Shown one piece after another: positions 17,038 through 45,940 of a stretch of DNA of 64,000 nucleotides. Where the stretch lies: contig AWNV01000001.1 in assembly GCA_000493965.1 (NCBI GenBank), positions 41,167 to 105,166 of the forward strand. The letters run 5' to 3'. The stretch's first letter is position 1. The number at the start of each line of letters is the position of its first letter. This DNA comes from Candidatus Aminicenans sakinawicola JGI OTU-1. GTDB lineage: Bacteria > Acidobacteriota > Aminicenantia > Aminicenantales > Aminicenantaceae. The notes below the pieces were generated by a model. That model saw only the letters and a program-made list of their open reading frames with translations. It made no database searches and was not told where the DNA came from. The translations under genes and the position numbers were made by a program.

Positions 17038-17991
17038 TTGACATTAAAAAGTGTTGTAAAAAAAGTTTTCAATTATATTAATGTTGCGAAAATAAAGAGG
17101 TTTGCAATAAATGATAACATGTATTTTATAGGTAATAGAGATTCACCTGGTGCAATAAACAGGGTGGTTTTATATTTTCCGGACTATGAGTTCATGCATT
17201 ACGGAGACCATTTGTTCTTTGAGCCACTGGCAAGATTTTTTAAATTAAAAAACTTCAAAGTAAAAGTAATGCCTGTAAAGCAGATGGAATTTTATTTCAT
17301 AAAAAACGGTTATCTGATAGGAAATCATGATGATGTAAAAAAGGCAGATTTATTAATTACAAGAACTGAATTTTATAAAGATGTTAAGAGATTGATTGAA
17401 AAAAACATCTTATTTATCAATACGTCATCTGCTAAAATTAATCAATTTTTGTGTAAGGATATCGTAAATAAAGTAGCCAACTTTTTTTCAATAGAAAGTG
17501 ATAATTTTTATACAAAGCCGTCGGGACTGAGAAATTGTCCGGAAAATATAAGGCTTGACTCAAGTTATAATTATGTAATTTTTAATAATTATATAGATTC
17601 GGGATTTTTCAGGGTTATAAAAAGAGACTATAAAAAGATCAATGACTTTGCTAAAAATTTCGCTAAAGAAAATAATTTAAAAGTTATTCACACAGGCACA
17701 CAAAAAGAAAAAGACAATGACAAGAAAACCTATGATTTTGTTGATATTGATTTAAGAGGGAGAACAGGTCCTGCAGACTTATTTTATCTGGCCTCACATG
17801 GTAATGTTAAATACAATATATCTTTTGACACTTTATTAATGCATATATTTTTTATCTATGGGAAAAAATCGTATATCATGTTCAGAGGGAGATTTTCAAG
17901 TTCAGCAAGGGATTACTTTATTAAAAATTATGTGATTCCACCATTCGATCCAGAACCGCATAAAATAAAAAATTTAATTGAGTATATATAG
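17038..17991 (+). CDS. Hypothetical protein, possibly a GT9 (heptosyltransferase-like) glycosyltransferase
   Basis: TTG start. N-terminal ..RVVLYFPDYEFMHYGDHLFFEPLARFF.. and C-terminal ..RTGPADLFYLASHGNVKYNISFDTLLMHIF.. weakly resemble GT9 motifs (GD.., DSG.mHLA). Confidence 0.35.
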   Translation: MTLKSVVKKVFNYINVAKIKRFAINDNMYFIGNRDSPGAINRVVLYFPDYEFMHYGDHLFFEPLARFFKLKNFKVKVMPVKQMEFYFIKNGYLIGNHDDVKKADLLITRTEFYKDVKRLIEKNILFINTSSAKINQFLCKDIVNKVANFFSIESDNFYTKPSGLRNCPENIRLDSSYNYVIFNNYIDSGFFRVIKRDYKKINDFAKNFAKENNLKVIHTGTQKEKDNDKKTYDFVDIDLRGRTGPADLFYLASHGNVKYNISFDTLLMHIFFIYGKKSYIMFRGRFSSSARDYFIKNYVIPPFDPEPHKIKNLIEYI

Positions 17992-20541: not shown

Positions 20542-21918
20542 ATGAAAGATATAAAAGTTTTATTTTTTATTTTTATCATTTTTCAAGGTGTTTTCTATTT
20601 ATTACTTGTACCTCCATGGCAATCACCGGATGAAACTCATCATTTTGGTTGTGGAGCTTTATTATCCAAAAATGCTAAATTAGGATCTAAAAACCATAAA
20701 ATTGTTAGTAAAGAAATTGTTGAATCAATGGCTAATTTTCATGCCTGGCAATATCAAAATATTCCACGTCCTGAACCAATGCCTCAAACATTATCCGAGC
20801 TGCCCTATTACCAGGGTATTGAAAGTGTCTCCGGAAGAGAACCTCTTTATTATGGGATTAACTCATTTATTTTAAAGGTCTTTAATTTAAAGAAGAACAT
20901 CGATCAATTTTATTTAATCCGATTTCTTTCATTATTATATTTCATTGTTACTGTCTATTTTTTATATTTATCTTCGAAACTTGTATTTAAAGATAATATT
21001 TCTTATGTCTTTGCAACTGTTTGCTTTGTTGCTCTTTTACCTCAATTTTTGATCATTACCACTTCTGTTAATCCAGTGAATCTTGCTGTGGTGTTAGGAG
21101 CGGCCTTTCTTTATGTAATTCTTTATTCTTTATTTAAGGGGAAAAAATTAATTGCTCTTCTGTTAGGACCCATAATTATTGGATTGGCTTTTTTCAATCA
21201 TCGAGTTGCTTTGTTTATGATTCCCCCCTTTGTGGTTTTGTTGTTAATATATTTTGTTCGCTCATTGAAAAGTAAAAGGGAAATGATAAAAATCTTTGTT
21301 ATTACTTTGATTGTTTTACTGATATTTATATTCTTATTTTTTACGGCTCAGTATTTCTTTCCAGATCAATTTAAAAGAGTTGTTAGCATTTCAGGATTAA
21401 AACCTCGAATATATGAAATAAATGAATTTGGAAAATATATATCACCCGGAACTTCTCGATCTTTAACAAGTTTTTTAGATGGGTCTTTTAAGACTTTTTG
21501 GTTTTTTGCGGGATGGTTGAGATTTGGATATCATTTGGATATTTATTCTGTCTTGAAATTGATTTGTTTTCTTTCGGTTTTCGGTCTTTTTAAGTATTTA
21601 TACTTATATTTTTCTCGGAGAAAATATTCAATGGATGTGGATTTTTCTTCTTTTCTCATTCTTATTGCTGCAGGTCTGCCTATTATATTTGGAGCAATAA
21701 TTAGATATTATCCTACATCTATAGTAGCACAAGGAAGGTATGTTTACCCAGCAATAAGTGCATTAGCAATTCTTTTTATATTGGGATTAAAGGAAATTGC
21801 TCCAAAGAGGTTAGAAAAGTGGGTGCCAATATTCATTATTGGTGGCTTTATGGCACTGAATATATATACTATTTTTCATTCAATGTTCAGGGTTTTTTAT
21901 TATTTCACGAATGCCTAA
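20542..21918 (+). CDS. Polytopic membrane protein, GT-C-like (PMT/ArnT-related) candidate glycosyltransferase
   Basis: About 12 TM helices; first-loop motif ..LVPPWQSPDETHHFG..; its stop overlaps the start of the next gene (21911). Confidence 0.45.
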   Translation: MKDIKVLFFIFIIFQGVFYLLLVPPWQSPDETHHFGCGALLSKNAKLGSKNHKIVSKEIVESMANFHAWQYQNIPRPEPMPQTLSELPYYQGIESVSGREPLYYGINSFILKVFNLKKNIDQFYLIRFLSLLYFIVTVYFLYLSSKLVFKDNISYVFATVCFVALLPQFLIITTSVNPVNLAVVLGAAFLYVILYSLFKGKKLIALLLGPIIIGLAFFNHRVALFMIPPFVVLLLIYFVRSLKSKREMIKIFVITLIVLLIFIFLFFTAQYFFPDQFKRVVSISGLKPRIYEINEFGKYISPGTSRSLTSFLDGSFKTFWFFAGWLRFGYHLDIYSVLKLICFLSVFGLFKYLYLYFSRRKYSMDVDFSSFLILIAAGLPIIFGAIIRYYPTSIVAQGRYVYPAISALAILFILGLKEIAPKRLEKWVPIFIIGGFMALNIYTIFHSMFRVFYYFTNA

Positions 21919-23344
21919 GATATTCAAAAAGAAAAATATTATTCCTTTAACTTATATTGTTTTAATTATTTTTATCTCTGTTTTTTTTCTTTCAATTTCT
22001 CCTCCTACATTGATCGAAGTATATAATCAATCCCAGAATGATATTCCAGTGGGTGAAATATACGGAAGCATGAAGATTGGACAGACTTTTGAGGCAGATC
22101 ATAAAGATTTATCAGCCATAGAAGTTTTGCTGGCAACTTTTAGTAGAGTGAATGAAGGGACTTTCGTCTTTCATCTGAGAGATAGCTTAAAAAGTGAAGA
22201 TAATATGGTTTGGTACAACGTTAATATGAGAGAAGTTCAGGATAATAAGTTCTTTCGTTTCTCTATTCCCAAGATAAAAGATTATAAAGGAAAAAGAATA
22301 TTATTTTCAAAAGGGAAGAAATATTATTTTTATCTGGAATCTCCCCATGCAGAACCTGGGAATGCCATTACCATCTGGTCGAGTTCTGAGAACTTATATA
22401 AGGATGGTGAAAAAATTATCAATGGTGTGCCATCTCAAGGAGATCTAGTATTTAAAACGGAATATGAATTGGGATGGATGTTAAGTTATCATACTCTGTC
22501 AACAAGACTTATGAATATTCTGAATTTTTCCCTTAATCTTTTTAAGAATCAAGTTTTTTATTTTGTAATACTTCTTATGTCGTTTGTCTGGGCCTTTATC
22601 ACACTTGTAACAAAATTTGAAATCTTTCAAAGAAAAGGAGGTATTTTCTTTGTCTTCGGAATTGTGTTTTTTGTTGTATCCCTTTGGATCGTTCTGCTTT
22701 TTATGAAGAAAATAGAAGTTTACAATCAATTTGTCCCCAACAATGCGGCAGGGGAAATTTATGGAGGAAAAAAAGTGGGGCAGACTTTTACAGCCCAGCA
22801 TGACCATCTGATAGCTATTGAGGTATTAATGGGGACTTATAACAGAAAAAACACGGGTGAGTTGATCTTTCATATGAAAGGACAGGCAGGGGATATGATC
22901 GATTTACACCATTCCAGGGTGGATATGCTTAATATCAAGGACAACCGGTATCATCGATTTAAGATCTCTGAAATAAAAAACTCCAAGGGCAGAAAATATT
23001 TTTTTTATTTAGAAGCACCGCAGTCCCAATCTGGAAACACTATAACCATCTGGTGCAATGACGAAGAGGATAAGTACAGAGAGGGGGCGAAGGTTATTAA
23101 TGGCGAAGAGATGGAAGGAGATCTTGTTTTTAAAACCATCTATGCTGTAGGATTGGGAGGGAAAACCGGTTTATTTTTGGGAGAAATTACACGGAATAAG
23201 CCTTCACCTCTGAATACTAAATTGTTATATGTGGGGCTGATTGTTTCCTTCGTTCTCACATGTTCTCTGCTTTTGACCTACATCATTAGAGTTTTTGTGG
23301 AAACGTACGTTATAAAAAAGAAAGAGGGTCATTCTGAATATTAA
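21911..23344 (+). CDS. Membrane protein of unknown function with two tandem copies of a module (one TM helix plus a roughly 150-aa domain)
   Basis: Module 1 is about residues 10-195 and module 2 about 215-405; they align across their length. Example: GEIYGSMKIGQTFEADHKDLSAIEVL..FYLESPHAEPGNAITIWSS..GDLVFKTEYE versus GEIYGGKKVGQTFTAQHDHLIAIEVL..FYLEAPQSQSGNTITIWCN..GDLVFKTIYA. A third TM helix lies at the C-terminus. Confidence 0.6.
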   Translation: MPKIFKKKNIIPLTYIVLIIFISVFFLSISPPTLIEVYNQSQNDIPVGEIYGSMKIGQTFEADHKDLSAIEVLLATFSRVNEGTFVFHLRDSLKSEDNMVWYNVNMREVQDNKFFRFSIPKIKDYKGKRILFSKGKKYYFYLESPHAEPGNAITIWSSSENLYKDGEKIINGVPSQGDLVFKTEYELGWMLSYHTLSTRLMNILNFSLNLFKNQVFYFVILLMSFVWAFITLVTKFEIFQRKGGIFFVFGIVFFVVSLWIVLLFMKKIEVYNQFVPNNAAGEIYGGKKVGQTFTAQHDHLIAIEVLMGTYNRKNTGELIFHMKGQAGDMIDLHHSRVDMLNIKDNRYHRFKISEIKNSKGRKYFFYLEAPQSQSGNTITIWCNDEEDKYREGAKVINGEEMEGDLVFKTIYAVGLGGKTGLFLGEITRNKPSPLNTKLLYVGLIVSFVLTCSLLLTYIIRVFVETYVIKKKEGHSEY

Positions 23345-24749
23345 ACCACAGGTTATCATTCTAGGAGCAGGTATATCCGGAATAAGCTTAGCGTGGAGAT
23401 TGTGCAGTGAGGGAGTTAGAGTTTTGGTGATTGAATCCGCTAATGTTGTTGGAGGTTTAGCTGGAACGCTCCGAGAAAACGGATACTGTATGGATGTTGG
23501 CCCTCATTCTCTTTTTTCTGAGGACAAAGAGATTCTTGATATAATCCTCAATCTTTTTGATAACACATTAATAGCTAAACCGCGACAGGTCAAATTCTAT
23601 TACAGAGGTAAATATCTCGATTACCCTCTAACAGCATACAGCGTGCTTTTTCAGATGGGTATTTGGTCTGGTATGCGCGTTGGATTAAGCTTTTTGAAAA
23701 GCAAGTTTTTATCCAAAAAACATAAAACTCTTAATAGGGAAGAAGAGACTGTTGAGGATTGGGCAATTGCAAGTTTTGGGAAGCATCTTTATAAGACTTT
23801 TTTTAAGCCTTATACTGAACAATTCTGGAAGTTACCTTGTACAGAGTTATCGTCCCGCACTATTCCCACTCATACACGAATGAGCTTTATTAATACGCTG
23901 CGTCTGCTTTTACAGAAGCGATTCACCAAATCGGATGCGTCTCTTATCGAACGAGAAATGCTGCCTACTTATTACCCGAATTCAGGTTTTGGAGAAATCC
24001 CTGAGAGAATTGCTGTTGAAGTTAAGAAAAGGGAAGGGCAGATCTATACAAATTGCCGGGCTTTGAGAGTCAAAAAACTGCCAAGTGGGGGAATGAGTGT
24101 TTTGTATGAGCAAAACGGAAAACAAAAGGAAGTTAGAAGTGCTTATGTGGTTTCAACTATACCAATTAATGAATTTATCAAGATGCTAAATCCGCCGCCG
24201 CCTCCGGAAATTCTAGCGTCGGCTGATGGGCTCAATTATCGTGCGCTTACATCTCTGGGAATTGTGACAGAGAAGCAAAATATTCTTAATTGCAGTTATA
24301 TCTATGTTTTGGATCGTCCATACAACCGTATTTCTGAAATGAATGAGTTCAGCCAAACAACAAGTCATGCAGGAGATAATATCATTATGATCGAAATACC
24401 GTGTCACAGAGATAGTACTGTATGGACAGCTTCAAAAGAAAAACTGTTTGATATGTGCATTGGCAGCCTGGCAAAGGATGGTATCCTGGGGCCGGGAGAT
24501 GTAAAACATTTACTCGTAATAAGATCACCGCATGCCTATCCAATTTACAGTAAAGACTATGCAAAGAACCTGAATAAAGTCTTCGATTATATAAATGGAA
24601 GCAAAGGGATATCAATATTGGGGAGGACTGGTGAATTTATCTACTCGGATATTGATAAGTGTATGAAAAGAGCCTTTGATTTTGCCGATAGGTTTTTAAA
24701 GGATTATTGCATGGAGATAAAGTCCAAAAAAGGAGAACAGCATGCCTAA
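23340..24749 (+). CDS. FAD-dependent oxidoreductase, UDP-galactopyranose-mutase-like (Glf/amine-oxidase fold), paralog 1
   Basis: Rossmann motif VIILGAGISGISLAW..VVGGLAGT..DVGPHSLF and Glf-like C-terminal GRTGEFIYSDIDKC. The GxGxxG motif lies upstream of the first ATG/GTG/TTG codon (the TTG at 23400), so the start is probably ATT 23340 or CTG 23334, both preceded by AGAGGG. Confidence 0.5.
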   Translation: MKPQVIILGAGISGISLAWRLCSEGVRVLVIESANVVGGLAGTLRENGYCMDVGPHSLFSEDKEILDIILNLFDNTLIAKPRQVKFYYRGKYLDYPLTAYSVLFQMGIWSGMRVGLSFLKSKFLSKKHKTLNREEETVEDWAIASFGKHLYKTFFKPYTEQFWKLPCTELSSRTIPTHTRMSFINTLRLLLQKRFTKSDASLIEREMLPTYYPNSGFGEIPERIAVEVKKREGQIYTNCRALRVKKLPSGGMSVLYEQNGKQKEVRSAYVVSTIPINEFIKMLNPPPPPEILASADGLNYRALTSLGIVTEKQNILNCSYIYVLDRPYNRISEMNEFSQTTSHAGDNIIMIEIPCHRDSTVWTASKEKLFDMCIGSLAKDGILGPGDVKHLLVIRSPHAYPIYSKDYAKNLNKVFDYINGSKGISILGRTGEFIYSDIDKCMKRAFDFADRFLKDYCMEIKSKKGEQHA

Positions 24750-27062: not shown

Positions 27063-27522
27063 AACTGTGATCGAGGGAGTTATTATAAAAGAAATTAAGA
27101 GTCACATTGACGAGAGGGGATTTTTCAGTGAGATCCTTCGTGTAAATGAGGATTTTCATCCAGGCGATATTGGTCAGATTAGCCATTCTTTTGTTAAAAA
27201 GGGAGTTCTTAAAGCCTGGCATATGCATACATTTCAATCACAGTGGAATTATGTGGTATGCGGATTGATCAAAGTAGCTTTACACGATACTCGCAAAGAA
27301 TCACCCACTTTTCACCAGACAATTGAGCTTTTAACTGGTGATGATCAAGCTCCAAAAGTTTACTTTTTCCCTCCTGGAGTTGCGCATGGGTATATTTGTT
27401 TAAAGAGCCCTATGCATATTATCTATGTTACATCCGGAGTTTATGATATTTCTGATGAAGTCCGTATTCCTCATAATGATCCAGATATTGGGTATGATTG
27501 GCTGAAGAACAAAATAACATAA
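27043..27522 (+). CDS. RmlC-like cupin: NDP-4-keto-sugar 3,5-epimerase or 3,4-ketoisomerase (WxcM/FdtA-like)
   Basis: ..[12 protein letters not shown]....[19 protein letters not shown].. parallels RmlC ..DERGFF..RGLHFQ.., but the protein is short (159 aa), like the FdtA/WxcM isomerases. Confidence 0.6.
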
Positions 27523-27530
27523 TAAATAAG

Positions 27531-28508
27531 ATGTTATCCTATTTTTGCGGAAAAAAAATTTTAATAACAGGGGGAAATGGTTATATTGCGTCTAACTTAG
27601 TTCACAAACTTAAAAATATCGACTGCACTATTGTCCGAGCAGATAGAGCTTTTGATACACCCACAATAAACGGAAGAGCAAGCATAAGGGATGTGATTGG
27701 AGATATTAAGGATAAAAGTTTTTTTGAGGGAGTCTTGGAAAGTATTGATATTGTGTATCATTTTGCTGCACAGACCAGTCTATATCAAGCAGAAAAGAAC
27801 CCTATGGACGATTTTTCAGTTAATGTTGTTCCGATGCTTAATTTACTGGAAACTTGTCGATATAGAGGGTGGAAGCCAGCCATTATTTTCTCCGGCACTG
27901 TTACTGAGGTAGGTATTCCTAAGAATTTACCGGTTAATGAGACTTGCTGTGACTGTCCGGTTTCTATATATGATATGCATAAATTGATGGCTGAAAATTA
28001 TTTAAAATATTATTCCAAGCGGGGAATTGTGTTTGGTACGGTTTTGCGTTTGGCGAATGTATATGGGCCTGGCCCTAAGAGCAGCAGTAGTGACCGAGGC
28101 GTGCTGAATATGATGATTAGAAAGGCACTGGCAGAAGAACCTTTAAATATCTACGGCACAGGGGAATATTTAAGGGATTATATATTTGTAGAAGATGTAG
28201 TGCGGGCGTTTCTTGAAGCCGCTATTCATAAGGATCAAGTAAATGAGAAATATTTTATTATTGGCAGCGGAGAGGGGATAAAACTCAGTCAGGCTGTAAA
28301 TCTTGTTGCAGATAGAGCTGCTTTAAAAACAGGAAAGAGAGTGCCAGTCAGGCATGTTGATCCTCCATCCATTCTGCATCCAGTTGAGTTTCGAAATTTT
28401 ATTGCGGATCCGAAGTTATTTATGAATTCTACAGATTGGAAAATAAATTTTTCTTTGATCAAAGGAATAGACTGTACTATTGACTATTTTTCAGGCGCTA
28501 AAATATAA
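27531..28508 (+). CDS. NAD-dependent epimerase/dehydratase (extended SDR) no. 1
   Basis: KILITGGNGYIASNL Rossmann motif and YDMHK (YxxxK); the ATG at 27531 lies in a frame that is open from the TTG at 27498. Confidence 0.7.
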   Translation: MLSYFCGKKILITGGNGYIASNLVHKLKNIDCTIVRADRAFDTPTINGRASIRDVIGDIKDKSFFEGVLESIDIVYHFAAQTSLYQAEKNPMDDFSVNVVPMLNLLETCRYRGWKPAIIFSGTVTEVGIPKNLPVNETCCDCPVSIYDMHKLMAENYLKYYSKRGIVFGTVLRLANVYGPGPKSSSSDRGVLNMMIRKALAEEPLNIYGTGEYLRDYIFVEDVVRAFLEAAIHKDQVNEKYFIIGSGEGIKLSQAVNLVADRAALKTGKRVPVRHVDPPSILHPVEFRNFIADPKLFMNSTDWKINFSLIKGIDCTIDYFSGAKI

Positions 28509-28596
28509 TAGCAAAAAAGATGCTATTGAAAAAACAGAATATATATTTATTTTATTGAAGAGAGCTATTGTATTAAATCAATAAAAGTGATTAAAG

Positions 28597-29616
28597 ATGC
28601 TAAAAAGAATTGAGAAAAATAACATATCACTTCCTTCCTTAAAAGGCAGAAGAGTTCTTATCACAGGAGGGTTAGGTTTTATAGGAAGCAATCTGGCACA
28701 TAAATGTGTAGAGTTAGGGGCTGAAGTCACAATTTTTGATGTTTTAGATCCCCGGTCAGGAGGAAATCTATATAATATTCAGGGAATTCAGGATTCAGTA
28801 GAACTGCAATATTTTAACATTCTCGACTTTGGCCAAGTATCTCAAAGTGTAATAAAGAAGGATATTATTTTTAACTGTGCAGCATCAACATCTCATCCTT
28901 TTTCTATGATAGAGCCATGGATCGATCTGGATATAAACAGTAAAGGAGTGATTAATTTACTTGAGGCAATTCGTCGTTTTAACAGAGAGGTGAAGTTTAT
29001 ACATTTGGGTACAAGCACTCAGTTAGGAAAGCTACAATTTCAACCAGCAGATGAAAATCATCCTGAATTTCCTACTGATATCTATTCTGCAAACAAATGT
29101 GTTTCGGAAAAGTATACTTTGATATATTCAAGAGCAAGGCAGATATGTGGTTCTGTCCTTAGGCTGACGAATGTTTATGGCCCGAGAGCTAGTATACACA
29201 GCCCGGAGTTTACATTTAACAATTTTTTTATTGGATTGGCCTTACAAGGGAAAGAAATTACAGTATATGGTGATGGCAGCCAATTGCGAAACATAATTTT
29301 TGTTGATGATGTTGTTGAGGCTCTTATCCTTGCGTCCCAGTGTTCAAAGATAAATAATGAAACATTTTTTGTAGCCGGAGATTTTCATTACAGCATCTCA
29401 AATATTGCAGAAGAGATAGTGAAACATATGAAGAGAGGAAAAGTAAAATATGTGGAATGGCCAAAAGACAGAAAATCAATCGATTTTGGAGATGCCATAA
29501 TAAGTAATCAGAAGATCAAAAAAGTATTAAATTGGACTCCTCGAACTGATTTTAAAACTGGTTTAATTAAGACTAGGGATTATTATAAAAATTGTTTGGA
29601 AGAATATTTGAGGTGA
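28597..29616 (+). CDS. NAD-dependent epimerase/dehydratase (extended SDR) no. 2
   Basis: VLITGGLGFIGSNLAHK; YSANK catalytic dyad. Confidence 0.75.
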   Translation: MLKRIEKNNISLPSLKGRRVLITGGLGFIGSNLAHKCVELGAEVTIFDVLDPRSGGNLYNIQGIQDSVELQYFNILDFGQVSQSVIKKDIIFNCAASTSHPFSMIEPWIDLDINSKGVINLLEAIRRFNREVKFIHLGTSTQLGKLQFQPADENHPEFPTDIYSANKCVSEKYTLIYSRARQICGSVLRLTNVYGPRASIHSPEFTFNNFFIGLALQGKEITVYGDGSQLRNIIFVDDVVEALILASQCSKINNETFFVAGDFHYSISNIAEEIVKHMKRGKVKYVEWPKDRKSIDFGDAIISNQKIKKVLNWTPRTDFKTGLIKTRDYYKNCLEEYLR

Positions 29617-29620
29617 TATT

Positions 29621-30553
29621 ATGAAAATTGTGATTACTGGAGCTTTGGGGCATATAGGCTCAAAAGTTATCCGGGAAATCCCAGAAACTTTCCAAGAACC
29701 TGAAATTGTTATGATCGATAATATGTTGACTCAACGCTACTGTTCTTTGTTTAACTTACCTGCTCGCGGGAAATATTCTTTTATAGAAGCAGATGTATTA
29801 AATATGGAACTATGCCCCATTATTGAGGGAGCTGATTTTGTCCTGCATTTGGCTGCTATTACTGATGCCACAAGCAGTTTTAAAAACAAAGATCAGGTTG
29901 AAAATGTCAATTATAAAACAACAGTGAGGGTTTCCGAGGCTTGTAATGAAGTTGGATGCCCCATGATCCATTTTTCAACAACCAGCGTATATGGCACCCA
30001 ACAAAACGTTGTAGATGAAGATTGTTCTCCTGAGGAACTACGGCCACAAAGCCCCTATGCAGAGACAAAATTGAGGGAAGAACAATTTTTGCAAAATTTT
30101 GGCGCAGCAGAAAATTTGGATTTTTTAATATGTCGTTTTGGAACAATATGTGGGATTTCTCCTGGGATTCGCTTTCATACAGCGGTGAATAAATTCTGCT
30201 GGCAGGCTGTTATGAAGCAGCCGCTTTCTGTATGGCGGACAGCTTTATTTCAAAAGCGTCCCTATTTGGTTCTGAGTGATGCAGTGAAAGCCATTATATT
30301 TATAATTAAAAACAACTTGTTTGATAAAAGGATTTATAATGTCCTATCAGAAAATAGGACAGTACATTCCATTATTCAATGTATAAAACAATATATTCCC
30401 CAGTTAAATATTCAATATGTAAATGCCGAGATCATGAATCAGTTATCTTATGAAGTCTCAAACCTGCGCTTCAAAGAACAAGGATTTGAATTTTCAGGGA
30501 GTGTAGATAAAAGTATTCAAGAAACGATTCAATTACTTTTAACTGTGAAATAA
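29621..30553 (+). CDS. NAD-dependent epimerase/dehydratase (extended SDR) no. 3
   Basis: MKIVITGALGHIGSKV; YAETK. Confidence 0.7.
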   Translation: MKIVITGALGHIGSKVIREIPETFQEPEIVMIDNMLTQRYCSLFNLPARGKYSFIEADVLNMELCPIIEGADFVLHLAAITDATSSFKNKDQVENVNYKTTVRVSEACNEVGCPMIHFSTTSVYGTQQNVVDEDCSPEELRPQSPYAETKLREEQFLQNFGAAENLDFLICRFGTICGISPGIRFHTAVNKFCWQAVMKQPLSVWRTALFQKRPYLVLSDAVKAIIFIIKNNLFDKRIYNVLSENRTVHSIIQCIKQYIPQLNIQYVNAEIMNQLSYEVSNLRFKEQGFEFSGSVDKSIQETIQLLLTVK

Positions 30554-33186
30554 ACATCCGGTTTTCTATTCTTAATGGTTGTAATCAGAAATAGAAAAAA
30601 ATAAGATGCATATGATAGAGCCTTTAAATAGAATGTTATAAAATCAACCTTATGATAAAATTCTACAGTATGAAGACCTGGAGGTAAATTAATCCCCATG
30701 AAACCGCCTTCTAACACTTCTATCTTTCCAGGCACTTTATCTGTTCTTACTTTCCAATATTTATCATTGAACATTTCAAAATATAGAAATCTCCTAAAGC
30801 TTGTGTCTACTTTAATCCGCAGGTAATCTCCTCTAAATTCTTCAATTTTAATATCTCTCAATATTTTTTGGAAGCTTATAACTATTTTTTGCGGTCTATA
30901 ATCCCTGCTTAAGGAAATATTTAGAGTTTTTGCTTTCTCATAGTTTAGTTGGTACTGGCCTGCTTCGTAAAAATCATTATACCAAGTTTCTTTCAGAAGT
31001 TTATTATTGGACATAACCGAGATGTATATCCTGGTATCACTATAGGAATTAGTTGAATAATAATATGGAATTTGAGGATGAACCAGCTTATATATGTTTA
31101 TACCATACCTATCAAGGCTGCGGTGCAACTTAAATGCGGAAAAAGGGAAAGTCAAAACAGTCTCATCTTTTTCAGGATAGTAAATATGATCCAAAAAACT
31201 GCTTAAGTCAATATACTCTTGGTGGATTATTTTCTTATAGAAAGCATTCATAATTTCTTTATTTTTTACCAAACCGATTATCGGCTTATGCAATACCTTT
31301 TTTTTGATCTCTGCGTCAGGGATAGCATCTATACCTTTATAGAAAGGGAGCAGTTTTTTGTATGTTAGATCAACTAGATTCAATTCCGAAAACACCTTGC
31401 TGTATACAGTAAGATATCCCCTACATGTATCTATACGGTACTGCTTTGATAAATAACTAATAAAGGGTTCGAAGGAAGTATCTCGTGGCAACGAACTATC
31501 TTCCTTTCTTAATGGAGGAAGAGAGTATGGCTTCCAATAATCGACTTTGCGGTAGTAGTTACTTGTGTAATAGTAGTTCATCATTAGTTGAGAGAAGATG
31601 AGCATACCGAGAATCGGAAGTAGCATGTTTTTTCTCCATTTTTTATTTATGTTTGACTCTATAAAATACATGGCTAGAATCATCAGTATTAGCAACCCAA
31701 ATATCTGTATCAAAAAGGTGATCCAATTACCTGAATTCGAGCCGAGGATAATCAGAGTGAAGGAAGTGAAGCGATGTATATATCTCTGGGAGAGTGGACC
31801 TGCAAGGAAGGGAACAAGAATAAAAATAATCAATACCAAACTATATATTCTAGATTTCTTCGTTAAAATCTTCCCTGTTTTACGCAAATTATCAAAAATA
31901 CTATTTATCCCATATCCAATTAACACGATCAATGGTAATGCTGCATAATCAAATAAATAATTAATCCACCGTGTCTTTCTGAAAATTTCAAGTTGATAAA
32001 ACAATTTATATAGCCATGATTCACTTCCCATGCCGATATAAAATAACAATAGGAATAGAGACAAAAATAAATACTTTAATTTATTTTTTGAGAAGAGCAG
32101 GGCCATGCCAATAAAAAAAAGGCCTATGGATCCAATATAGGCACTCTGAGCCATTCTATCGTAGCCTTGTGTCTCTACAGGGTAGACATACTGCACTATG
32201 TCTTGTGGTTTGTAATCTACTGCCTCAGAAAGCAGAATGTATTGTCTATCGCTCCCTCCCCAACTCATGGGATTTGTATAAAAATCACTGAGGGATGGTA
32301 ACATTAAAAGCATCGGCAATGAGATTATGAGGAATGAAATAAAAAGGGAAAAAAAGTTAAAAGCATTGCCCTTGATAAAAATTAATGAATCCTTTGTTAT
32401 TTTTTTCAGAATACATACGAAATCATTAGATTTTTTGTATTCTATGATTCTCATAATGAGTAAGTAACTTATCAGGATGAAAACGAAAGTCGTGATATAA
32501 AAAAAGGCATGTATCATCATTCTACCGGAATACAATATCTGGCCAAGCAAAAAACCTTGAATAACATAAATATAAATAGAAGCCTTTTTATTTGATAAAA
32601 ATATTTTGATAAAAAATAGTGAAATCCAAGGAATAAACATAAATGCTGTTAATACATTATGTACTGCTTCAAGAAGGGAGAGTGACCAACCACTGAAGAT
32701 AACAAATAGAAGTGTACAAAACACAACCCTTTTATCTTTAATAAGATGCTTTAATAGAAAATAAAAACCACCTATGAAAATAAAGAAGTAACATAAGTAA
32801 ATAATATATATCTTATAAATTACGTGCACATCTAAATCGACTCCAATTGTCCGGAAAAAACGCATTATTTGCAGATAGCCCAAGAAGATAGGTGAATTGA
32901 TACAGTTTATATAAGAATACATAAGGAAGTTATGACCACCTATCACATAAGGTTCCCACGTTGGAATTTTTCCATAATTCATAAAATAACTTATTTGAAA
33001 TGAGAAAGTACCATAGTCATTGGTAGCATCAGCGAATTCAAGCCGATTGAAGTGATTTGAACCGATAAAGAAGTGATAGACAAGCAGTAAGAAAATAAGT
33101 GGAACAAGTTTCCTTGCGGTCTTGGTGAATTGCTCCTTAATTTTCCTCAATTTCTCTCGGCTGACATTTTTGGATGAGTGTATCAC
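30529..33186 (-). CDS. YfhO-family large polytopic membrane protein (GT-C-like)
   Basis: 885 aa with more than 15 TM helices; N-terminal ..YGKIPTWEPYVIGGHNFLMYS.. resembles the YfhO signature (PLWNPYIFGG.P); a large extracytoplasmic C-terminal domain. Confidence 0.55.
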   Translation of the reverse strand: MIHSSKNVSREKLRKIKEQFTKTARKLVPLIFLLLVYHFFIGSNHFNRLEFADATNDYGTFSFQISYFMNYGKIPTWEPYVIGGHNFLMYSYINCINSPIFLGYLQIMRFFRTIGVDLDVHVIYKIYIIYLCYFFIFIGGFYFLLKHLIKDKRVVFCTLLFVIFSGWSLSLLEAVHNVLTAFMFIPWISLFFIKIFLSNKKASIYIYVIQGFLLGQILYSGRMMIHAFFYITTFVFILISYLLIMRIIEYKKSNDFVCILKKITKDSLIFIKGNAFNFFSLFISFLIISLPMLLMLPSLSDFYTNPMSWGGSDRQYILLSEAVDYKPQDIVQYVYPVETQGYDRMAQSAYIGSIGLFFIGMALLFSKNKLKYLFLSLFLLLFYIGMGSESWLYKLFYQLEIFRKTRWINYLFDYAALPLIVLIGYGINSIFDNLRKTGKILTKKSRIYSLVLIIFILVPFLAGPLSQRYIHRFTSFTLIILGSNSGNWITFLIQIFGLLILMILAMYFIESNINKKWRKNMLLPILGMLIFSQLMMNYYYTSNYYRKVDYWKPYSLPPLRKEDSSLPRDTSFEPFISYLSKQYRIDTCRGYLTVYSKVFSELNLVDLTYKKLLPFYKGIDAIPDAEIKKKVLHKPIIGLVKNKEIMNAFYKKIIHQEYIDLSSFLDHIYYPEKDETVLTFPFSAFKLHRSLDRYGINIYKLVHPQIPYYYSTNSYSDTRIYISVMSNNKLLKETWYNDFYEAGQYQLNYEKAKTLNISLSRDYRPQKIVISFQKILRDIKIEEFRGDYLRIKVDTSFRRFLYFEMFNDKYWKVRTDKVPGKIEVLEGGFMGINLPPGLHTVEFYHKVDFITFYLKALSYASYFFLFLITTIKNRKPDVYFTVKSN

Positions 33187-33392
33187 ACGAAAAACGACTT
33201 AGGCAACTACTTTATAATGCAACATACAAAGTAATAGTTACTTTAGCAGCCATTTTAAAGCTTGATTGAGAATCTGAATTTATATTACGATGATAGTGCG
33301 AACTTGTCGCTCAAAAAATCATCTGAGAAATCAAAAACCATTTGTCGACGCACAGAAAATTAATTTGATTCCAATGTGGTTTTCATTTTAAA

Positions 33393-34199: not shown

Positions 34200-34207
34200 A
34201 ATCAGAG

Positions 34208-34972
34208 TTGTTTATGGATGCTAAACTTCATATAAATGAAGAAGTCGATGATTCTGTAAGTGTTATCATTAGTGCTTATAATGAGGTTGAGACTATTGAA
34301 CAGGAAATTCGTTCTTACTATAAAACAGTTGTGTCACAAATTCCCGGATCAGAGTTAATTGTGGCTGAAGATGGTAGTACCGATGGAACAAAACAAATTA
34401 TATCTCGTCTTGTGAATGAGCTCAATATTATCCATTCTACCGCTATGGTACGTAAAGGCTACGCGCTTGCATTACGAGATGCTGTCAATTTAACAAAATG
34501 TCCTTATATTTTCCTAAGCGATGCAGGTAATAAACACAATCCTAAAGATTTTTGGAGACTTTATCCATTCCGTAATGAATTTGGACATGTCATTGGAATA
34601 AAAAGTAATCGTACAGATCAATTGTATAGGCAATTTCTTACTTGGGGCTACAATAAATTTATATCTTTTTACTTTGGCATTAAAGTTAGGGATGCTGATA
34701 GCGGATTTCATATTTTAAAACAAGAAATAGCAAAAAAAGTTTTTAATGAAGAGTGGATCAATAAAGATCTCATAGCTTCAGAGATAACATTGCGAATTAT
34801 ATATAGTGGTGTTCCAGTAAAAGAAGTGCCAATTTCTTATGGTCAAAGAAAAGGAGAATCACGAGGATTGCCGCTGAACAGGATACCAGGTGTTATTTTA
34901 AGAGTTTTATATAATTTTTCTAAGCTTAAAAGAACATTATCAGATCCAAGCTATAAAAAGTCATATGAATAA
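34208..34972 (+). CDS. GT2 polyprenyl-phosphate glycosyltransferase (DPM1/GtrB-like)
   Basis: VSVIISAYNEVETIEQEI..LIVAEDGSTDGT; small soluble GT-A lying directly upstream of a GT-C protein. Confidence 0.7.
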   Translation: MFMDAKLHINEEVDDSVSVIISAYNEVETIEQEIRSYYKTVVSQIPGSELIVAEDGSTDGTKQIISRLVNELNIIHSTAMVRKGYALALRDAVNLTKCPYIFLSDAGNKHNPKDFWRLYPFRNEFGHVIGIKSNRTDQLYRQFLTWGYNKFISFYFGIKVRDADSGFHILKQEIAKKVFNEEWINKDLIASEITLRIIYSGVPVKEVPISYGQRKGESRGLPLNRIPGVILRVLYNFSKLKRTLSDPSYKKSYE

Positions 34973-36526: not shown

Positions 36527-36587
36527 TATATATAGACAGTGAAGTTACTTATTAATTAGCTGAATTTTTTATAAAAGGGAAAGATAA

Positions 36588-37532: not shown

Positions 37533-37540
37533 GAAAATAA

Positions 37541-38242: not shown

Positions 38243-38262
38243 AAATCCGTTCAGTAAGAATA

Positions 38263-38340
38263 AAGTGCAAAGCTCGTGAAGCAAGATAAAGCTGCTAAGT
38301 GCAGTTTTACTTGCAGTAGTGTTATTTAGAGATTTAGATC
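38263..38340. repeat. Degenerate non-coding copy of the 5' end of the gene at 42769 (direct repeat, left copy)
   Basis: aagtgcaaagctcgtgaagcaagataaagctgctaagtgcagttttacttgcagtagtgttatttagag aligns with 42754-42836 (aatgtgcaaagcccttgaagcgatataaaac..gctgagtgcagttttacttgcagtagtgctatttaaag). The left copy carries a 9-bp deletion and an in-frame stop. Confidence 0.7.
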
Positions 38341-38351
38341 AGATTTTATAG

Positions 38352-39644: not shown

Positions 39645-39692
39645 AAATTAAATAAAATCCGTGTAAGAAATTTTTCTTAACTGAGGGGTAAT

Positions 39693-40694: not shown

Positions 40695-40702
40695 TTTTTC
40701 AA

Positions 40703-41884: not shown

Positions 41885-41929
41885 AAATTAAGATGAAATG
41901 GAAATCAATATGATAACAAAGGAGGAACA

Positions 41930-42622: not shown

Positions 42623-42768
42623 GATGTCCTTGATAACAGTCTGTTCCTGAGTAAAAAATCAAGCGAACTACTTTGATATAGCATGTTAATGAAGATGCAA
42701 AAGTACTTAAAAAAAAGATCGTATTTGGCCTTGACAATTAGACTACTTCAAAATAATGTGCAAAGCCC

Positions 42769-43861: not shown

Positions 43862-45919
43862 ATGCTTTTTAGAAACTCTCGTATTCGAGCGTTTTTCTTG
43901 TTTTTCGCTGTAGTCTATTTAGTAATATTCTACTTTTTCTATTTAAGGTATGTCCCTCTGGTAACGCCTTTTCAGATAATACTTATTCCGATTTTATTTA
44001 TTCTTTTTGTTTTAACAATGACAAACATTCAATGGGGGATTCTGTTTTTTATCTTTGCCTTTCCATTAATAAATAATCTCCCCTATTTTTTTGGAATTTA
44101 CGGCCATATTCCACATGCTCCTACTGCTTTAGTTTTATTTTTGGCTTTTTTTGCAGGGTGGTTAGTTCATTCTGTTTTTTCTAAATCAGAGATTTCTTTT
44201 GAACATCCAATTTTTAAGCCCTTAATTTTATTATCACTGCTTATTTTTGTGTCCGGAATTATCACTTTCCTTAGATATTCAAACTTTTATCCTTTTCTAA
44301 GTGATTACGTATACGAGCTCATTACTAACACGAATGGAGTAACCGCAGGGGGAGCCATAATGAGTTCGGTGTTTTTCTCCCTGAATTACTTAACAGGATT
44401 TGCTTTCTTTTTTATTCTTTTGAACACGGTTAAAGAAAAGGAATTTATAATAAAAATATTAGTGGTTTTATTAATAAGCACTTCTATTTCCATTGCTTTT
44501 GGTTTCTTCCAGCATTACAAAGATATAGAAATTGCAAATAATCCTATCAGTTTTACTCAAGGATTTATAAATGGGACATTTAAAGATGCTATGTCTTTCG
44601 GGGGCTATTTAGCTGTTTTAATTCCCGTGATATTATCAATGATTTTTTTCTTTAAGGGTACGCTTAGAGTTTTTTCCTTTTTAGTATTCATATCTGCAGT
44701 ATTTATCCTTCCTAATACCGGTTCAAGAAGCGGCATTGTAGCTTTGGCTGTAAGTTTTGTGTTTTTTCTGGGTTTTTATTTAATAAGCCTGAAAAAACAA
44801 AAATCTTTCTCTTTAAAGAAAATAATGAGTTTTGGTGCAGCCTTTTTACTTATTTTTTCTGTTATTATATCGATTCTATTATTTTCAAAAGGTTCTATAG
44901 TGTATAAAAGATTAGATGAATTGTGGGTGTCATATAAAGAGGGCGGATTGGAGAAAGCATTAGCTGAACGAAGTGCAAGCCAATGGAAAATGGCAGCCAA
45001 AATGATTAAGGACTATCCATTTACAGGAGTAGGAATCGGGGCATTTATAATTGAGCTTCCTAATTATGCAGAAACAGATCAAATTCCTCTAAGAACCACG
45101 GATTCTGCAGAAAATTATTTTCTTCAAGTTGGATCAGAGCTGGGAATAATAGGTCTTTTTTTCGCGTTGTGGATTTTTTGGTTAATTTTCAAACAGATAA
45201 AAAAAGGATTTGATAAATATTTATCTCAGGACAGATGGAAGTATATTCGGATCGGATTTTTCTGCGGGATAATTTCTATGTTCATGATTTTCTTTGTACA
45301 TACTTATATTGGAAGTTATGAAATTAAGTATACTTTCTGGCTCTTGGTTGGATCGCTTTTTATTATGAATAGAAATGAAGCTGAGCCTGAAAGCAGAATT
45401 CATTTAAGTAAAAAATTTAAAATTTTTAGCCTGGCGCTAGTTCTAATCTTCAGCGGGCTGCATTTATGGAATTCAACCCGCTCTTTATCTTTGAAAAGCC
45501 GGACAAAACTGTATGATCTACAGCAAAATTTCGGTCTCTATCAGTTGGAGAAAAACCAGGAGGGAAGGGAATTCAGATGGACGCGAGGATATGGTGGATG
45601 GACCATTAAAATTGAAAAGCCGGTAATTGAGATTCCAATGCTAGCTTCTCATCCGGATATCGAAAAAAATCCACTCAGAGTCAAGATCTATTTGATAAAA
45701 AATTTCTTTAAAGAGAAAAGACTGCTAGATGAGGTTGTTTTGACAGAAAACTCATGGAAAACTTATGAATATTATATTCCAGAGGAAGTCAATCGTCAGG
45801 CTATTTTGCTGTTCAAAGTTAGCAGAACCTGGAATCCTCTGAAAACATTTGGAACTCCTGATCCAAGGAATTTGGGGATAGCTGTGGGGAAGATAAACTT
45901 TAAAACACTAAATCATTAA
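43862..45919 (+). CDS. O-antigen ligase-like membrane protein with a C-terminal extracytoplasmic domain (third Wzy_C-type protein)
   Basis: 685 aa; the polytopic N-terminal 470 aa carry ..LPNTGSRSGIVALAVSF.. (Wzy_C); a soluble C-terminal domain of about 190 aa. Confidence 0.6.
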   Translation: MLFRNSRIRAFFLFFAVVYLVIFYFFYLRYVPLVTPFQIILIPILFILFVLTMTNIQWGILFFIFAFPLINNLPYFFGIYGHIPHAPTALVLFLAFFAGWLVHSVFSKSEISFEHPIFKPLILLSLLIFVSGIITFLRYSNFYPFLSDYVYELITNTNGVTAGGAIMSSVFFSLNYLTGFAFFFILLNTVKEKEFIIKILVVLLISTSISIAFGFFQHYKDIEIANNPISFTQGFINGTFKDAMSFGGYLAVLIPVILSMIFFFKGTLRVFSFLVFISAVFILPNTGSRSGIVALAVSFVFFLGFYLISLKKQKSFSLKKIMSFGAAFLLIFSVIISILLFSKGSIVYKRLDELWVSYKEGGLEKALAERSASQWKMAAKMIKDYPFTGVGIGAFIIELPNYAETDQIPLRTTDSAENYFLQVGSELGIIGLFFALWIFWLIFKQIKKGFDKYLSQDRWKYIRIGFFCGIISMFMIFFVHTYIGSYEIKYTFWLLVGSLFIMNRNEAEPESRIHLSKKFKIFSLALVLIFSGLHLWNSTRSLSLKSRTKLYDLQQNFGLYQLEKNQEGREFRWTRGYGGWTIKIEKPVIEIPMLASHPDIEKNPLRVKIYLIKNFFKEKRLLDEVVLTENSWKTYEYYIPEEVNRQAILLFKVSRTWNPLKTFGTPDPRNLGIAVGKINFKTLNH

Positions 45920-45940
45920 TCTAATAACGTAAGAAATTAG

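What the first reader, a model, noticed from the sequence alone, without database searches (positions are those of the whole stretch)
20542..23344. Translationally coupled pair: PMT/ArnT-like polytopic membrane protein plus a protein with two tandem copies of a module (one TM helix and a roughly 150-aa domain)
The gene at 21911 encodes two tandem copies of a module made of one TM helix followed by a roughly 150-aa domain. The copies align residue by residue: GEIYGxxKxGQTFxAxHxxLxAIEVL...FYLExPxxxxGNxITIW...GDLVFKT. I do not recognise the fold. The start of this gene overlaps the stop of a 12-TM GT-C-like protein that carries an SPDE loop motif. Structurally this looks like a membrane glycosyltransferase with a duplicated periplasmic accessory or carbohydrate-binding subunit. 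This pair is the best candidate in the window for an undescribed component of a glycan assembly or modification system.
Basis: partly seen in the sequence, partly recalled or inferred. Interest (0 to 1): 0.8.

Follow-up and report, generated by a model that had tools for sequence, protein, structure and literature searches.

The report
Membrane glycosyltransferase with split sugar-binding-like partner
Two overlapping genes in a polysaccharide-synthesis cluster encode a membrane sugar-transferase and a four-helix membrane protein carrying two copies of an uncatalogued beta-sandwich domain, which in other bacteria is fused directly onto such transferases, so the second protein is most likely the enzyme's detachable substrate-holding subunit.

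Summary

The domain is repeatedly fused to GT-C families. One protein, P0096, is a full-length A homologue fused to the second half of B. Stand-alone versions sit beside GT-C genes.

The best reading is that B is a non-catalytic, probably acceptor-glycan-binding or chain-regulating subunit of A. It is a split version of the GT-C plus CBM design known from GT136, EmbC and AftD, and resembles lactococcal WpsI/WpsH. I rate it a new variant of a known kind. The function is inferred, not shown.

The parts
20542..21918 (+). Gene A: GT-C-fold polytopic membrane glycosyltransferase (458 aa, 11 TM). It lies between Pfam PMT_2 and DUF2142.
20611..20634 (+). PPWQSPDE motif (aa 24-31) directly after TM1: the candidate catalytic acidic pair D30/E31 in the first extracytoplasmic loop.
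   Evidence: P24, P25, P29, D30, E31 and F35 are invariant in 23 homologues. The same motif is present in the fused proteins P0096, P0124, P0134, P0145, P0155 and P0085.
21730..21741 (+). QGRY motif (aa 397-400) before TM10; Q397, G398 and R399 are invariant.
   Evidence: For comparison, R349/Y350 are functionally important in GT136 ORF12 (PMC11127046). Whether the two motifs are equivalent was not tested.
21911..21918 (+). 8-nt overlap ATGCCTAA between the stop of A and the start of B.
   Evidence: The junction is conserved in L007, L020 and L021.
21911..23344 (+). Gene B: 477-aa, four-TM protein carrying two extracytoplasmic beta-sandwich domains.
   Evidence: The identical protein is on record in 55 blocks of the assembly collection and on 28 contigs.
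21938..21994 (+). B TM1 (aa 10-28), preceded by MPKIFKKKN (4 K, no acidic residue), so the N-terminus is cytoplasmic.
   Evidence: Hydropathy and charge count.
22013..22480 (+). B domain copy 1 (aa 35-190).
   Evidence: HMM domain limits. BLASTP against copy 2 gives 46% identity, E = 1e-46.
22553..22699 (+). B TM2 (aa 215-233), short basic cytoplasmic loop (TKFEIFQRKGG) and TM3 (aa 245-263). F225, W227, K242 and G244 are invariant.
22712..23158 (+). B domain copy 2 (aa 268-416). This is the copy kept in the single-domain relatives and in the fusions.
23174..23215 (+). Conserved juxtamembrane motif FLGEITRNKPSPLN (aa 422-435).
   Evidence: F422, L423, I426, P431 and P433 are invariant in 13 full-length homologues. 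The fusion P0096 carries SITQNKPFPLN in the same place.
23231..23287 (+). B TM4 (aa 441-459), followed by a basic C-terminal tail.
34208..34972 (+). Candidate polyprenyl-phosphate sugar synthase (GT2, 254 aa). It is a possible source of a lipid-linked donor for the GT-C enzymes of the cluster. This link is inferred only.
   Evidence: Pfam Glycos_transf_2. The best PDB sequence match is ArnC, E = 1.2e-5. GT2 genes lie near the GT-C/B pair in L016, L019 and L022.
43862..45919 (+). 685-aa Wzy_C protein. It lies directly downstream of B homologues in other genomes and is a possible alternative partner of B.
   Evidence: Pfam Wzy_C E = 1.3e-18. It is adjacent to or overlaps B homologues in L011, L012/13 and L019, and lies 1.2 kb away in L014/15.

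Best explanation
A and B form a two-subunit extracytoplasmic glycosylation unit inside a polysaccharide (O-antigen or capsule type) gene cluster.

A is a GT-C-fold transferase. It would take a sugar or oligosaccharide from a polyprenyl-phosphate-linked donor at the outer face of the cytoplasmic membrane, using the invariant D30/E31 loop after TM1, and add it to a glycan acceptor.

B is its non-catalytic partner. Four TM helices anchor two CBM-like beta-sandwich domains in the periplasm. There they most likely bind the acceptor polymer and hold or feed it to A, raising local substrate concentration, processivity or control of chain length.

B is the split, duplicated equivalent of the single C-terminal beta-sandwich module that related GT-C enzymes carry in the same polypeptide. 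The overlapping stop and start codons are consistent with translational coupling, which would help make the two proteins in matched amounts.

Shown here: the folds, the topology, the repeat, the gene pairing and the fusions. Inferred: glycan binding, physical contact between A and B, translational coupling itself, and the identities of donor and acceptor.
For: A has the GT-C fold and an invariant acidic motif.

B's domain model is a jelly-roll beta-sandwich. Its neighbours are phage baseplate and tail-spike domains, a PBCV-1 capsid protein and many CBMs. The phage 812 paper describes beta-sandwich domains of its baseplate tripod protein as CBM16/61-like or lectin-like (PMC13433997); I did not establish that the matched chain is that protein.

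Fusion evidence. Of 64 long proteins carrying the domain, 11 are YfhO, 10 DUF6541, 7 DUF2142, 6 DUF1616 and 5 PMT_2; others carry DUF7657, DUF6798, GT1/WsaF or GT2 domains. Thirteen proteins carry both the A-family profile and the B domain. The best is P0096: A profile positions 2-454, E = 1e-96, followed by the B domain, the ITxNKPxPLN motif and a TM helix.

Gene-order evidence. A B-family gene lies directly after an A-family gene in the window, L007, L012, L020, L021, L023 and L024. It lies within 2-3 kb of one in L014 and L019. It lies directly after or overlaps other GT-C types in L016/L022 and L025. The 8-nt overlap is conserved in four loci.

Both copies are equally conserved (mean identity 0.59 and 0.60), and orthologous copies cluster together, so both are under selection.

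Precedent. The C-terminal CBM of GT136 ORF12 binds the unmodified O-polysaccharide, and the CBMs of EmbC and AftD bind acceptor (PMC11127046).
Against: The domain keeps many polar residues nearly invariant (G-Q-T-F, Y..G, G-D-L) although it is attached to very different GT-C families. This is unusual if its only job were to recognise variable glycans. These residues may be structural, may bind a metal, or may bind a common ligand.

In L012 the B homologue is 53% identical to B, while its GT-C neighbour is only 33% identical to A. B is therefore not strictly co-evolving with one GT-C subtype.

The CBM of GT136 ORF12 was dispensable for activity under the conditions tested.

B homologues are also often followed directly by the 685-aa Wzy_C gene.
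Confidence: 0.6

Rival explanations
1. A is a GT-C-type polymerase that joins polyprenyl-phosphate-linked repeat units. B is its Wzz-like co-polymerase or chain-length regulator, as proposed for lactococcal WpsI (DUF2142, 11 TM) with WpsH (two TM helices flanking a large extracellular loop). In this reading B sets polymer length rather than simply tethering an acceptor.
For: A-family members hit DUF2142 and have 11 TM helices. Each B unit has the TM-loop-TM topology of WpsH and Wzz. The WpsI/WpsH model is described in PMC9574508 and PMC12599335. The pair lies next to an initiating phosphoglycosyl transferase (Bac_transf) in the window, L012 and L023.
Against: The cluster already has Wzx and Wzy_C genes that could carry out polymerisation. 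B's domain is an all-beta sandwich, not the helical Wzz fold, and there is no Pfam Wzz hit. The WpsI/WpsH roles are themselves inferred from bioinformatics and gene inactivation. Homology between B and WpsH could not be tested.
Confidence: 0.2
2. B works with the conserved 685-aa Wzy_C protein (an O-antigen ligase or polymerase type), not with A. Its position next to A would then be a by-product of locus layout.
For: B homologues are immediately followed by, or overlap, the Wzy_C-685 homologue in L011, L012/13 and L019, and lie 1.2 kb from it in L014/15.
Against: In the window the two genes are 20 kb apart. No Wzy_C fusion appears among the listed families for the 64 long domain-bearing proteins, whereas GT-C fusions dominate. 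Wzy_C-685 is far more conserved (82, 69 and 59%) than A or B across the same loci, as expected of a conserved gene flanking a variable locus. L020, L021, L023 and L024 have the A-B pair without Wzy_C-685 next to it.
Confidence: 0.08
3. The domain does not bind the variable glycan. It recognises something common to all these systems, such as the lipid-phosphate-linked donor head group, a metal ion, peptidoglycan, or a conserved surface of the GT-C itself. It would act as a structural or regulatory lid on the active site.
For: The polar motifs are strongly conserved across fusions to unrelated GT-C families and even to an acyltransferase-3 protein. B is more conserved than its GT-C neighbour in L012. 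Calcium-dependent CBM36 and CBM6/35 are among the structural neighbours.
Against: The nearest folds are glycan-binding modules and phage baseplate or tail-spike domains. Where such modules have been tested in GT-C enzymes they bind the acceptor glycan. Without model coordinates I could not map where the conserved residues lie.
Confidence: 0.1
4. The pairing has no functional meaning: B is an unrelated envelope protein that happens to sit downstream of A.
For: None beyond the absence of experiments.
Against: The junction is conserved, the pairing recurs across distant homologues, and natural fusions of the two exist.
Confidence: 0.02

Closest known systems
GT136 founding member ORF12 of Citrobacter youngae O1 (Kelly et al. 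2024, PMC11127046)
   Same: It is a GT-C enzyme with 11 TM helices, a small helical periplasmic domain after TM1 carrying essential acidic residues (D31, E34), and a roughly 150-residue beta-rich module at the C-terminus that binds the unmodified O-polysaccharide. The fused relatives of A (for example P0096 and P0124) have exactly this layout.
   Different: In the window the beta module is on a separate gene, is duplicated, and is anchored by four TM helices of its own. I did not look for the phosphoribose synthase or MATE flippase that belong to the GT136 pathway.
Lactococcal WpsI/WpsH (PSP polymerase and co-polymerase model; PMC9574508, PMC12599335)
   Same: It pairs a DUF2142-type GT-C that has 11 TM helices with a small membrane protein whose large extracellular loop is flanked by membrane segments, and both are encoded in a cell-surface polysaccharide locus.
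   Different: WpsH has one loop and B has two. Homology was not tested. The roles of WpsH and WpsI are themselves proposed rather than shown biochemically, and the two names are even swapped within one paper. The organism here appears to be diderm, judging by OMP beta-barrel genes in syntenic loci.
Mycobacterial EmbC/EmbA/EmbB and AftD with lectin-like CBMs (PMC3044687; AftD bioRxiv 10.1101/2019.12.22.885152)
   Same: They are GT-C transferases whose extracytoplasmic beta-sandwich CBMs bind the acceptor polysaccharide and improve product length or yield.
Pfam PMT_2 (PF13231) and DUF2142 (PF09913), with ArnT and PMT as the nearest solved GT-C enzymes
   Different: A profile of the A family finds no PDB sequence at E <= 10. 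A lacks the MIR domain of PMTs. It is therefore a distinct GT-C subfamily marked by PPWQSPDE…HF, LPQF and QGRY.
Wzz/PCP chain-length regulators
   Same: They have two TM helices flanking a periplasmic domain and partner with a polymerising membrane enzyme.
   Different: The Wzz periplasmic domain is helical and oligomeric. B's is an all-beta jelly roll with no Wzz Pfam hit.
Virus structural beta-sandwich domains: phage 812 baseplate protein 9euf_0, Bxb1 tail spike gp29, PBCV-1 capsid protein P1v1
   Different: Sequence identity is 9-12%. There is no PHROG hit and no tblastn hit in 50,697 phage records. The similarity is at fold level only.

Membership tests
GT-C fold glycosyltransferase superfamily (gene A) | Polytopic membrane protein with 7-13 TM helices that shares the conserved GT-C core fold | tested here: met
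GT-C fold glycosyltransferase superfamily (gene A) | Conserved acidic residue(s) in the first extracytoplasmic loop after TM1 | tested here: met
   D30 and E31 in PPWQSPDE are invariant in 23 homologues.
GT-C fold glycosyltransferase superfamily (gene A) | Uses a polyprenyl-phosphate-linked sugar donor outside the cytoplasm | not testable with these tools
   The only support is indirect: a GT2 gene whose best PDB sequence match is ArnC lies in the window, and GT2 genes lie near the pair in L016, L019 and L022.
Pfam PMT_2 (PF13231) | Score at or above the gathering threshold | tested here: met
   27.2 bits against a cutoff of 26.1, which is marginal. 7 of 23 family members match at E <= 0.01.
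Pfam DUF2142 (PF09913) | Score at or above the gathering threshold | tested here: inconclusive
   A itself has no hit at E <= 0.1. 8 of 23 homologues do hit, best E = 3.4e-17. Fused relatives range from strong DUF2142 hits (P0101, 247.6 bits) to none (P0096).
GT39 (PMT) / GT83 (ArnT) sequence families | Detectable sequence homology to characterised members | tested here: not met
   A profile of 23 A-family sequences finds no Pmt, ArnT or other GT-C chain in the PDB at E <= 10.
Carbohydrate-binding module (B domain) | Beta-sandwich or jelly-roll fold | tested here: met
Carbohydrate-binding module (B domain) | Found appended to carbohydrate-active enzymes | tested here: met
   It is fused to YfhO, DUF2142, PMT_2, DUF6541, DUF1616, GT1/WsaF and GT2 proteins and to A-family GT-C enzymes.
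Carbohydrate-binding module (B domain) | Sequence membership of an established CBM family | tested here: not met
   No Pfam hit at E <= 10 for either isolated copy or for stand-alone relatives. No NCBIfam hit on either domain; the two weak whole-protein matches (E 0.0024 and 0.035) fall far below their curated cutoffs and outside or across the domains. No credible PDB sequence hit: the only match below E 0.01 is a designed coiled-coil protein with no stretch that passes on its own.
Carbohydrate-binding module (B domain) | Demonstrated glycan binding | not testable with these tools
   This needs pull-down or array experiments with the purified domains.
Wzz/PCP co-polymerase | Two TM helices flanking a periplasmic domain | tested here: met
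   Each B unit, and the roughly 220-aa stand-alone relatives, are TM-domain-TM.
Wzz/PCP co-polymerase | Helical Wzz-type periplasmic domain (Pfam Wzz) | tested here: not met
   The model is all-beta, and there is no Pfam hit.
Lactococcal WpsI/WpsH pair | DUF2142-type GT-C with about 11 TM helices, encoded with a bitopic protein that has a large extracellular loop | tested here: met
   for the window pair.
Lactococcal WpsI/WpsH pair | Sequence or structural homology of B to WpsH | not tested
GT136 (ORF12-type) | Sequence homology to ORF12 and its C-terminal CBM (residues 503-652) | not tested
   The records named in the paper's supplement (BK026208.1, CP099034.1) are not in the collections.

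The most novel reading that the evidence does not exclude
The roughly 145-residue 'GQTF' beta-sandwich, typically flanked by TM helices when it stands alone, is an unrecognised and very widespread dedicated partner module of GT-C glycosyltransferases, present in at least about 5,900 clusters at 50% identity. It forms obligate complexes with them, either fused or as separate subunits such as B. Through its invariant polar motifs it recognises a feature common to all these reactions, such as the lipid-linked donor or the growing chain end, rather than a specific glycan. That would make it a general processivity or chain-length factor for extracytoplasmic glycan assembly.
Probability: 0.2. Interest if true: 0.7.

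Novelty: new variant of a known kind. Interest (0 to 1): 0.5.

Why it matters
GT-C enzymes build or decorate O-antigens, capsules, teichoic acids, arabinans and glycoproteins. How they hold long acceptor polymers is understood for only a few of them (EmbC, AftD, GT136).

This locus points to a large domain family with no matching model in the Pfam, NCBIfam or PHROGs libraries searched here. The family is linked to many GT-C families, sometimes fused to them and sometimes as a separate membrane-anchored subunit. Naming and modelling it would improve annotation of thousands of 'hypothetical' proteins in polysaccharide loci. It would also flag GT-C partners that Pfam misses, such as the 460-aa and 429-aa proteins with no Pfam hit in L020, L023 and L024. 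And it would give an easily testable system: a soluble domain of about 150 aa for binding assays, plus natural split and fused versions of the same enzyme.

It also offers a sequence-defined candidate for the 'co-polymerase' role assigned by analogy to WpsH-type proteins.

Tried and rejected
Sequence searches for the B domain found nothing useful.
- The PDB sequence profile search gave only chance-level hits.
- Pfam at E <= 10, NCBIfam and PHROGs gave nothing relevant.
- tblastn of domain copy 2 against 50,697 phage records and 72,556 plasmid records found no match.

For A, the PDB sequence profile search also found nothing, so the GT-C assignment rests on the predicted fold.

Several tool calls failed or yielded little.
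- The search for related loci with the domain alignment failed because there was no conserved 7-10 column stretch. The full-length alignment worked but returned only 5 loci.
- The afdb50 fold library was unavailable.
- The third homologue search, with the domain profile, returned only 13 mostly fragmentary proteins and no useful names.

I tried to reach GT136-type or WpsH sequences for a direct comparison and could not. BK026208 and NZ_CP099034 are not in the collections, and the original WpsH paper is not held.

The identical proteins occur in assemblies GCA_000398225.1, GCA_000405725.1, GCA_000405425.1 and GCA_000405305.1.

Ideas I rejected.
- The repeat is a compositional artefact. Rejected: 46% identity, E = 1e-46, and orthologous copies cluster separately.
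- B is a Wzz-family protein. Rejected: all-beta fold and no Wzz hit.
- B is phage-derived. Rejected: the similarity is at fold level only.

Full report
WHAT IS THERE. The region holds two same-strand ORFs. A is 20542..21918 (458 aa) and B is 21911..23344 (477 aa). B's ATG lies inside A's last codons (…ACG AAT GCC TAA), giving an 8-nt overlap. They sit in a long, same-strand polysaccharide cluster. Upstream are Wzx, Wzy_C, several GT4 genes, a Bac_transf initiating transferase and another GT4. Downstream are an FAD amine-oxidase/GLF-like gene, a C-methyltransferase, a DegT aminotransferase, a dTDP-sugar isomerase and several epimerase/dehydratase genes. The identical B protein is on record in 55 blocks of the assembly collection, including four NCBI assemblies. 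It is therefore a real gene, not an assembly artefact.

THE REPEAT. BLASTP of the two halves of B aligns aa 35-188 with the second copy at 46% identity, E = 1e-46. An HMM built from the two copies delimits the domains at 35-190 and 268-416. Hydropathy shows four TM segments, not two: aa 10-28, 215-233, 245-263 and 441-459. The basic stretches are the N-terminus (MPKIFKKKN), the 234-244 loop and the C-terminal tail. By the positive-inside rule both domains are therefore extracytoplasmic. The duplicated unit is TM-domain-linker-TM.

Thirty-six full-length homologues keep both copies. Copies 1 cluster with copies 1, and copies 2 with copies 2. Both are equally conserved (mean identity 0.59 and 0.60, against 0.51 between copies). 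So there was one old duplication and both copies are under selection. A roughly 300-aa subfamily (P0037-P0047) keeps the four-TM scaffold but only the copy-2-type domain. The scaffold has its own invariant features: F225, W227, K242 and G244, and a juxtamembrane motif FL.EIT.NKP.PLN before TM4.

THE DOMAIN. Neither the whole protein nor the isolated copies match any Pfam model, even at E <= 10. They match no NCBIfam or PHROG family and no PDB sequence. An AlphaFold model of copy 2, built with a 48-sequence alignment, is confident (pLDDT 88.9, pTM 0.85) and all-beta.

HOW WIDESPREAD. An exhaustive profile search of 1.84 billion representatives finds 5,946 clusters at E <= 1e-3 and 2,621 at E <= 1e-10. 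Among the best 150, about half are short proteins of roughly 145-300 aa. The ones I inspected are typically N-terminal TM or signal anchor, then the domain, then a C-terminal TM. Sixty-four are 450-1,018 aa long, with the domain at one end.

Pfam scanning of those 64 gives YfhO (11), DUF6541 (10), DUF2142 (7), DUF1616 (6), PMT_2 (5), DUF7657 (3), DUF6798 (3), GT1/WsaF (2), GT2 (1) and PA14 (1). One further fusion is to an acyltransferase-3 protein. The main fusion partners are polytopic membrane proteins. PMT_2 and YfhO are GT-C-type, and to my recollection Pfam places several of the others in the same GT-C clan. A third architecture (P0048-P0058) has one domain nested inside another.

Invariant residues are P24, P25, P29, D30, E31, F35, R127, S130, P167, G324, W325, Y335, Q397, G398, R399 and G415. 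The acidic pair directly after TM1 is in the position of catalytic residues in known GT-C enzymes. With the N-terminus inside and 11 TM helices, the C-terminus is outside.

THE LINK BETWEEN A AND B. Three lines of evidence connect the two genes.

(i) Gene order. A B-family gene lies directly after an A-family gene in these loci:
- the window;
- L007 (B 70% identical);
- L012/13 (115-nt gap);
- L020 and L021 (the same 8-nt overlap);
- L023 (a 213-aa single-domain form);
- L024 (a 429-aa A-family protein, profile E = 1.4e-39, followed 3 nt later by a 219-aa domain protein only 32% identical to B's domain).

In L014/15 and L019 a PMT_2 gene lies 2-3 kb upstream, with inserted genes in between. 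The nested form follows a different GT-C-like gene (weak Mannosyl_trans and GT87 hits) in L016/17 and L022. A 293-aa form overlaps a 1,118-aa YfhO in L025.

(ii) The junction AATGCCTAA/AATGCCTGA, which encodes …FTNA* and MP…, is conserved in the window, L007, L020 and L021.

(iii) Rosetta-stone fusions. Thirteen proteins carry both the A-family profile and the B domain. P0096 (673 aa) matches the A profile end to end (positions 2-454, E = 1.1e-96). It then continues into the B domain (aa 468-608), the SITQNKPFPLN motif and a final TM. In effect it is A fused to the second half of B. P0134, P0124, P0155, P0145 and P0085 are similar (E = 1e-43 to 1e-31), and all have the PPW..PDE motif.

MECHANISM. 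These data fit a two-subunit unit. A is the catalytic GT-C. B supplies, in trans and in two copies, the extracytoplasmic beta-sandwich module that relatives carry in cis. Since A's C-terminus is outside, a fused domain needs no extra anchor. The split version needs TM1 to bring the chain out again, which explains B's topology.

The best-documented precedent is GT136 ORF12 of Citrobacter youngae. It has 11 TM helices, essential D31 and E34 after TM1, and a C-terminal CBM (residues 503-652) that binds the unmodified O-polysaccharide. That CBM was dispensable under over-expression. The CBMs of EmbC and AftD behave similarly (PMC11127046). The closest split precedent is lactococcal WpsI (DUF2142 GT-C, 11 TM, proposed polymerase) with WpsH (two membrane segments flanking a large extracellular loop, proposed co-polymerase) (PMC9574508, PMC12599335).

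I therefore favour acceptor binding or presentation by B (confidence 0.6). A chain-length or co-polymerase role is the main variant (0.2).

The donor is unknown. A 254-aa GT2 whose best PDB sequence match is ArnC lies at 34208-34972, next to a second PMT_2-like gene. GT2 genes lie near the pair in L016, L019 and L022.

COMPLICATIONS. B homologues are often followed directly by a homologue of the window's 685-aa Wzy_C protein (43862-45919): L011, L012/13 and L019, with L014/15 at 1.2 kb. That protein is much more conserved than A or B across the same loci: 82, 69 and 59% identity, against 53, 53 and 40% for B and 33, 52 and 35% for A. It is also absent next to the pair in L020, L021, L023 and L024, and in the window it lies 20 kb away. 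I read it as a conserved gene flanking the variable locus, but I keep it as a rival (0.08).

Second, the domain's polar motifs are nearly invariant across fusions to very different enzymes. In L012 the B homologue is more conserved than its GT-C neighbour. This leaves room for a ligand other than the variable glycan (0.1).

NOVELTY. A GT-C enzyme with a CBM-like module is a known design, and a GT-C with a bitopic partner has been proposed. What is new is threefold. The domain family is large yet absent from Pfam, NCBIfam, PHROGs and the PDB by sequence. In this locus the module sits on a separate, duplicated, four-TM subunit whose start codon overlaps the stop codon of the GT-C gene. And the fused and split versions of the same enzyme can be lined up residue by residue. 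I rate it a new variant of a known kind, with interest 0.5.

LIMITS. I could not run a multimer prediction, had no access to model coordinates, and could not reach the WpsH or ORF12 sequences. All functional statements about binding, complex formation, translational coupling, donor and acceptor are inferences.

Noticed in passing
window 34208-36526 (+): This is a second candidate GT-C system. A 254-aa GT2, whose best PDB sequence match is the undecaprenyl-phosphate transferase ArnC (E = 1.2e-5), is followed with no gap by a 517-aa polytopic protein. That protein has a sub-threshold PMT_2 hit (23 bits against a cutoff of 26.1) and is labelled Competence-induced Ccs4_N in precomputed Pfam. No B-type gene lies next to it.
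   Followed up: partly
window 43862-45919 (+); L011, L012/13, L014/15, L019: In other genomes the 685-aa Wzy_C protein lies immediately downstream of B homologues, followed by the same PD40/Tricorn-like, unknown, OMP beta-barrel and GT2 genes. Relative to L012, the window carries about 20 kb of extra sugar-nucleotide and glycosyltransferase genes (23400-43734) between B and this conserved flank.
   Followed up: partly
window 30529-33186 (-): An 885-aa ORF on the opposite strand in the middle of the plus-strand cluster has no Pfam hit at E <= 10. It is called as 817 or 885 aa in the identical loci.
   Followed up: no
window 17038-17991 (+): A 317-aa ORF with no Pfam hit lies between the Wzy_C gene and the Bac_transf gene. 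It is present in all identical loci, where it is called as 290-317 aa.
   Followed up: no
window 23400-24749 (+) and 38352-39644 (+): Two FAD amine-oxidase-like proteins are present. The first lies directly downstream of B and has a just-sub-threshold UDP-galactopyranose mutase (GLF) hit (25.3 bits against a cutoff of 26.3). It may be a sugar mutase or oxidase for an unusual, perhaps furanose, sugar.
   Followed up: no
L003/L018, L004, L005 versus window about 27500-46000: The NCBI assemblies that carry identical A and B genes show the downstream genes in different order or orientation than in the window. For example, Wzy_C-685 is inverted directly after the dTDP-sugar isomerase in ASLH01000002.1. 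These may be real rearrangements or assembly or amplification chimeras.
   Followed up: partly
P0048-P0058; L016/L017, L022: This is a nested architecture. The N-terminal third of one domain is followed by a complete domain and then the remaining two-thirds, so one copy is inserted into a loop of another. These proteins lie directly after (overlapping by 4 nt in L022) a GT87/Mannosyl_trans-like polytopic gene, in loci that also hold GT2, DUF2304 and an 800-aa PMT gene.
   Followed up: partly
window 22283-22306 (B aa 125-132): An 8-residue insertion (YKGKRILF) occurs in domain copy 1. In the 13-sequence alignment it is seen only in the window protein and two close relatives (P0005, P0008), and it is absent from copy 2 and from more distant homologues.
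   Followed up: no
L020 4617-6008, L023 3540-4922, L024 3708-4997: These are A-family GT-C proteins (profile E = 1e-203, 3e-196 and 1e-39) with no Pfam hit at all at E <= 1. This GT-C subfamily is largely invisible to current Pfam models.
   Followed up: yes
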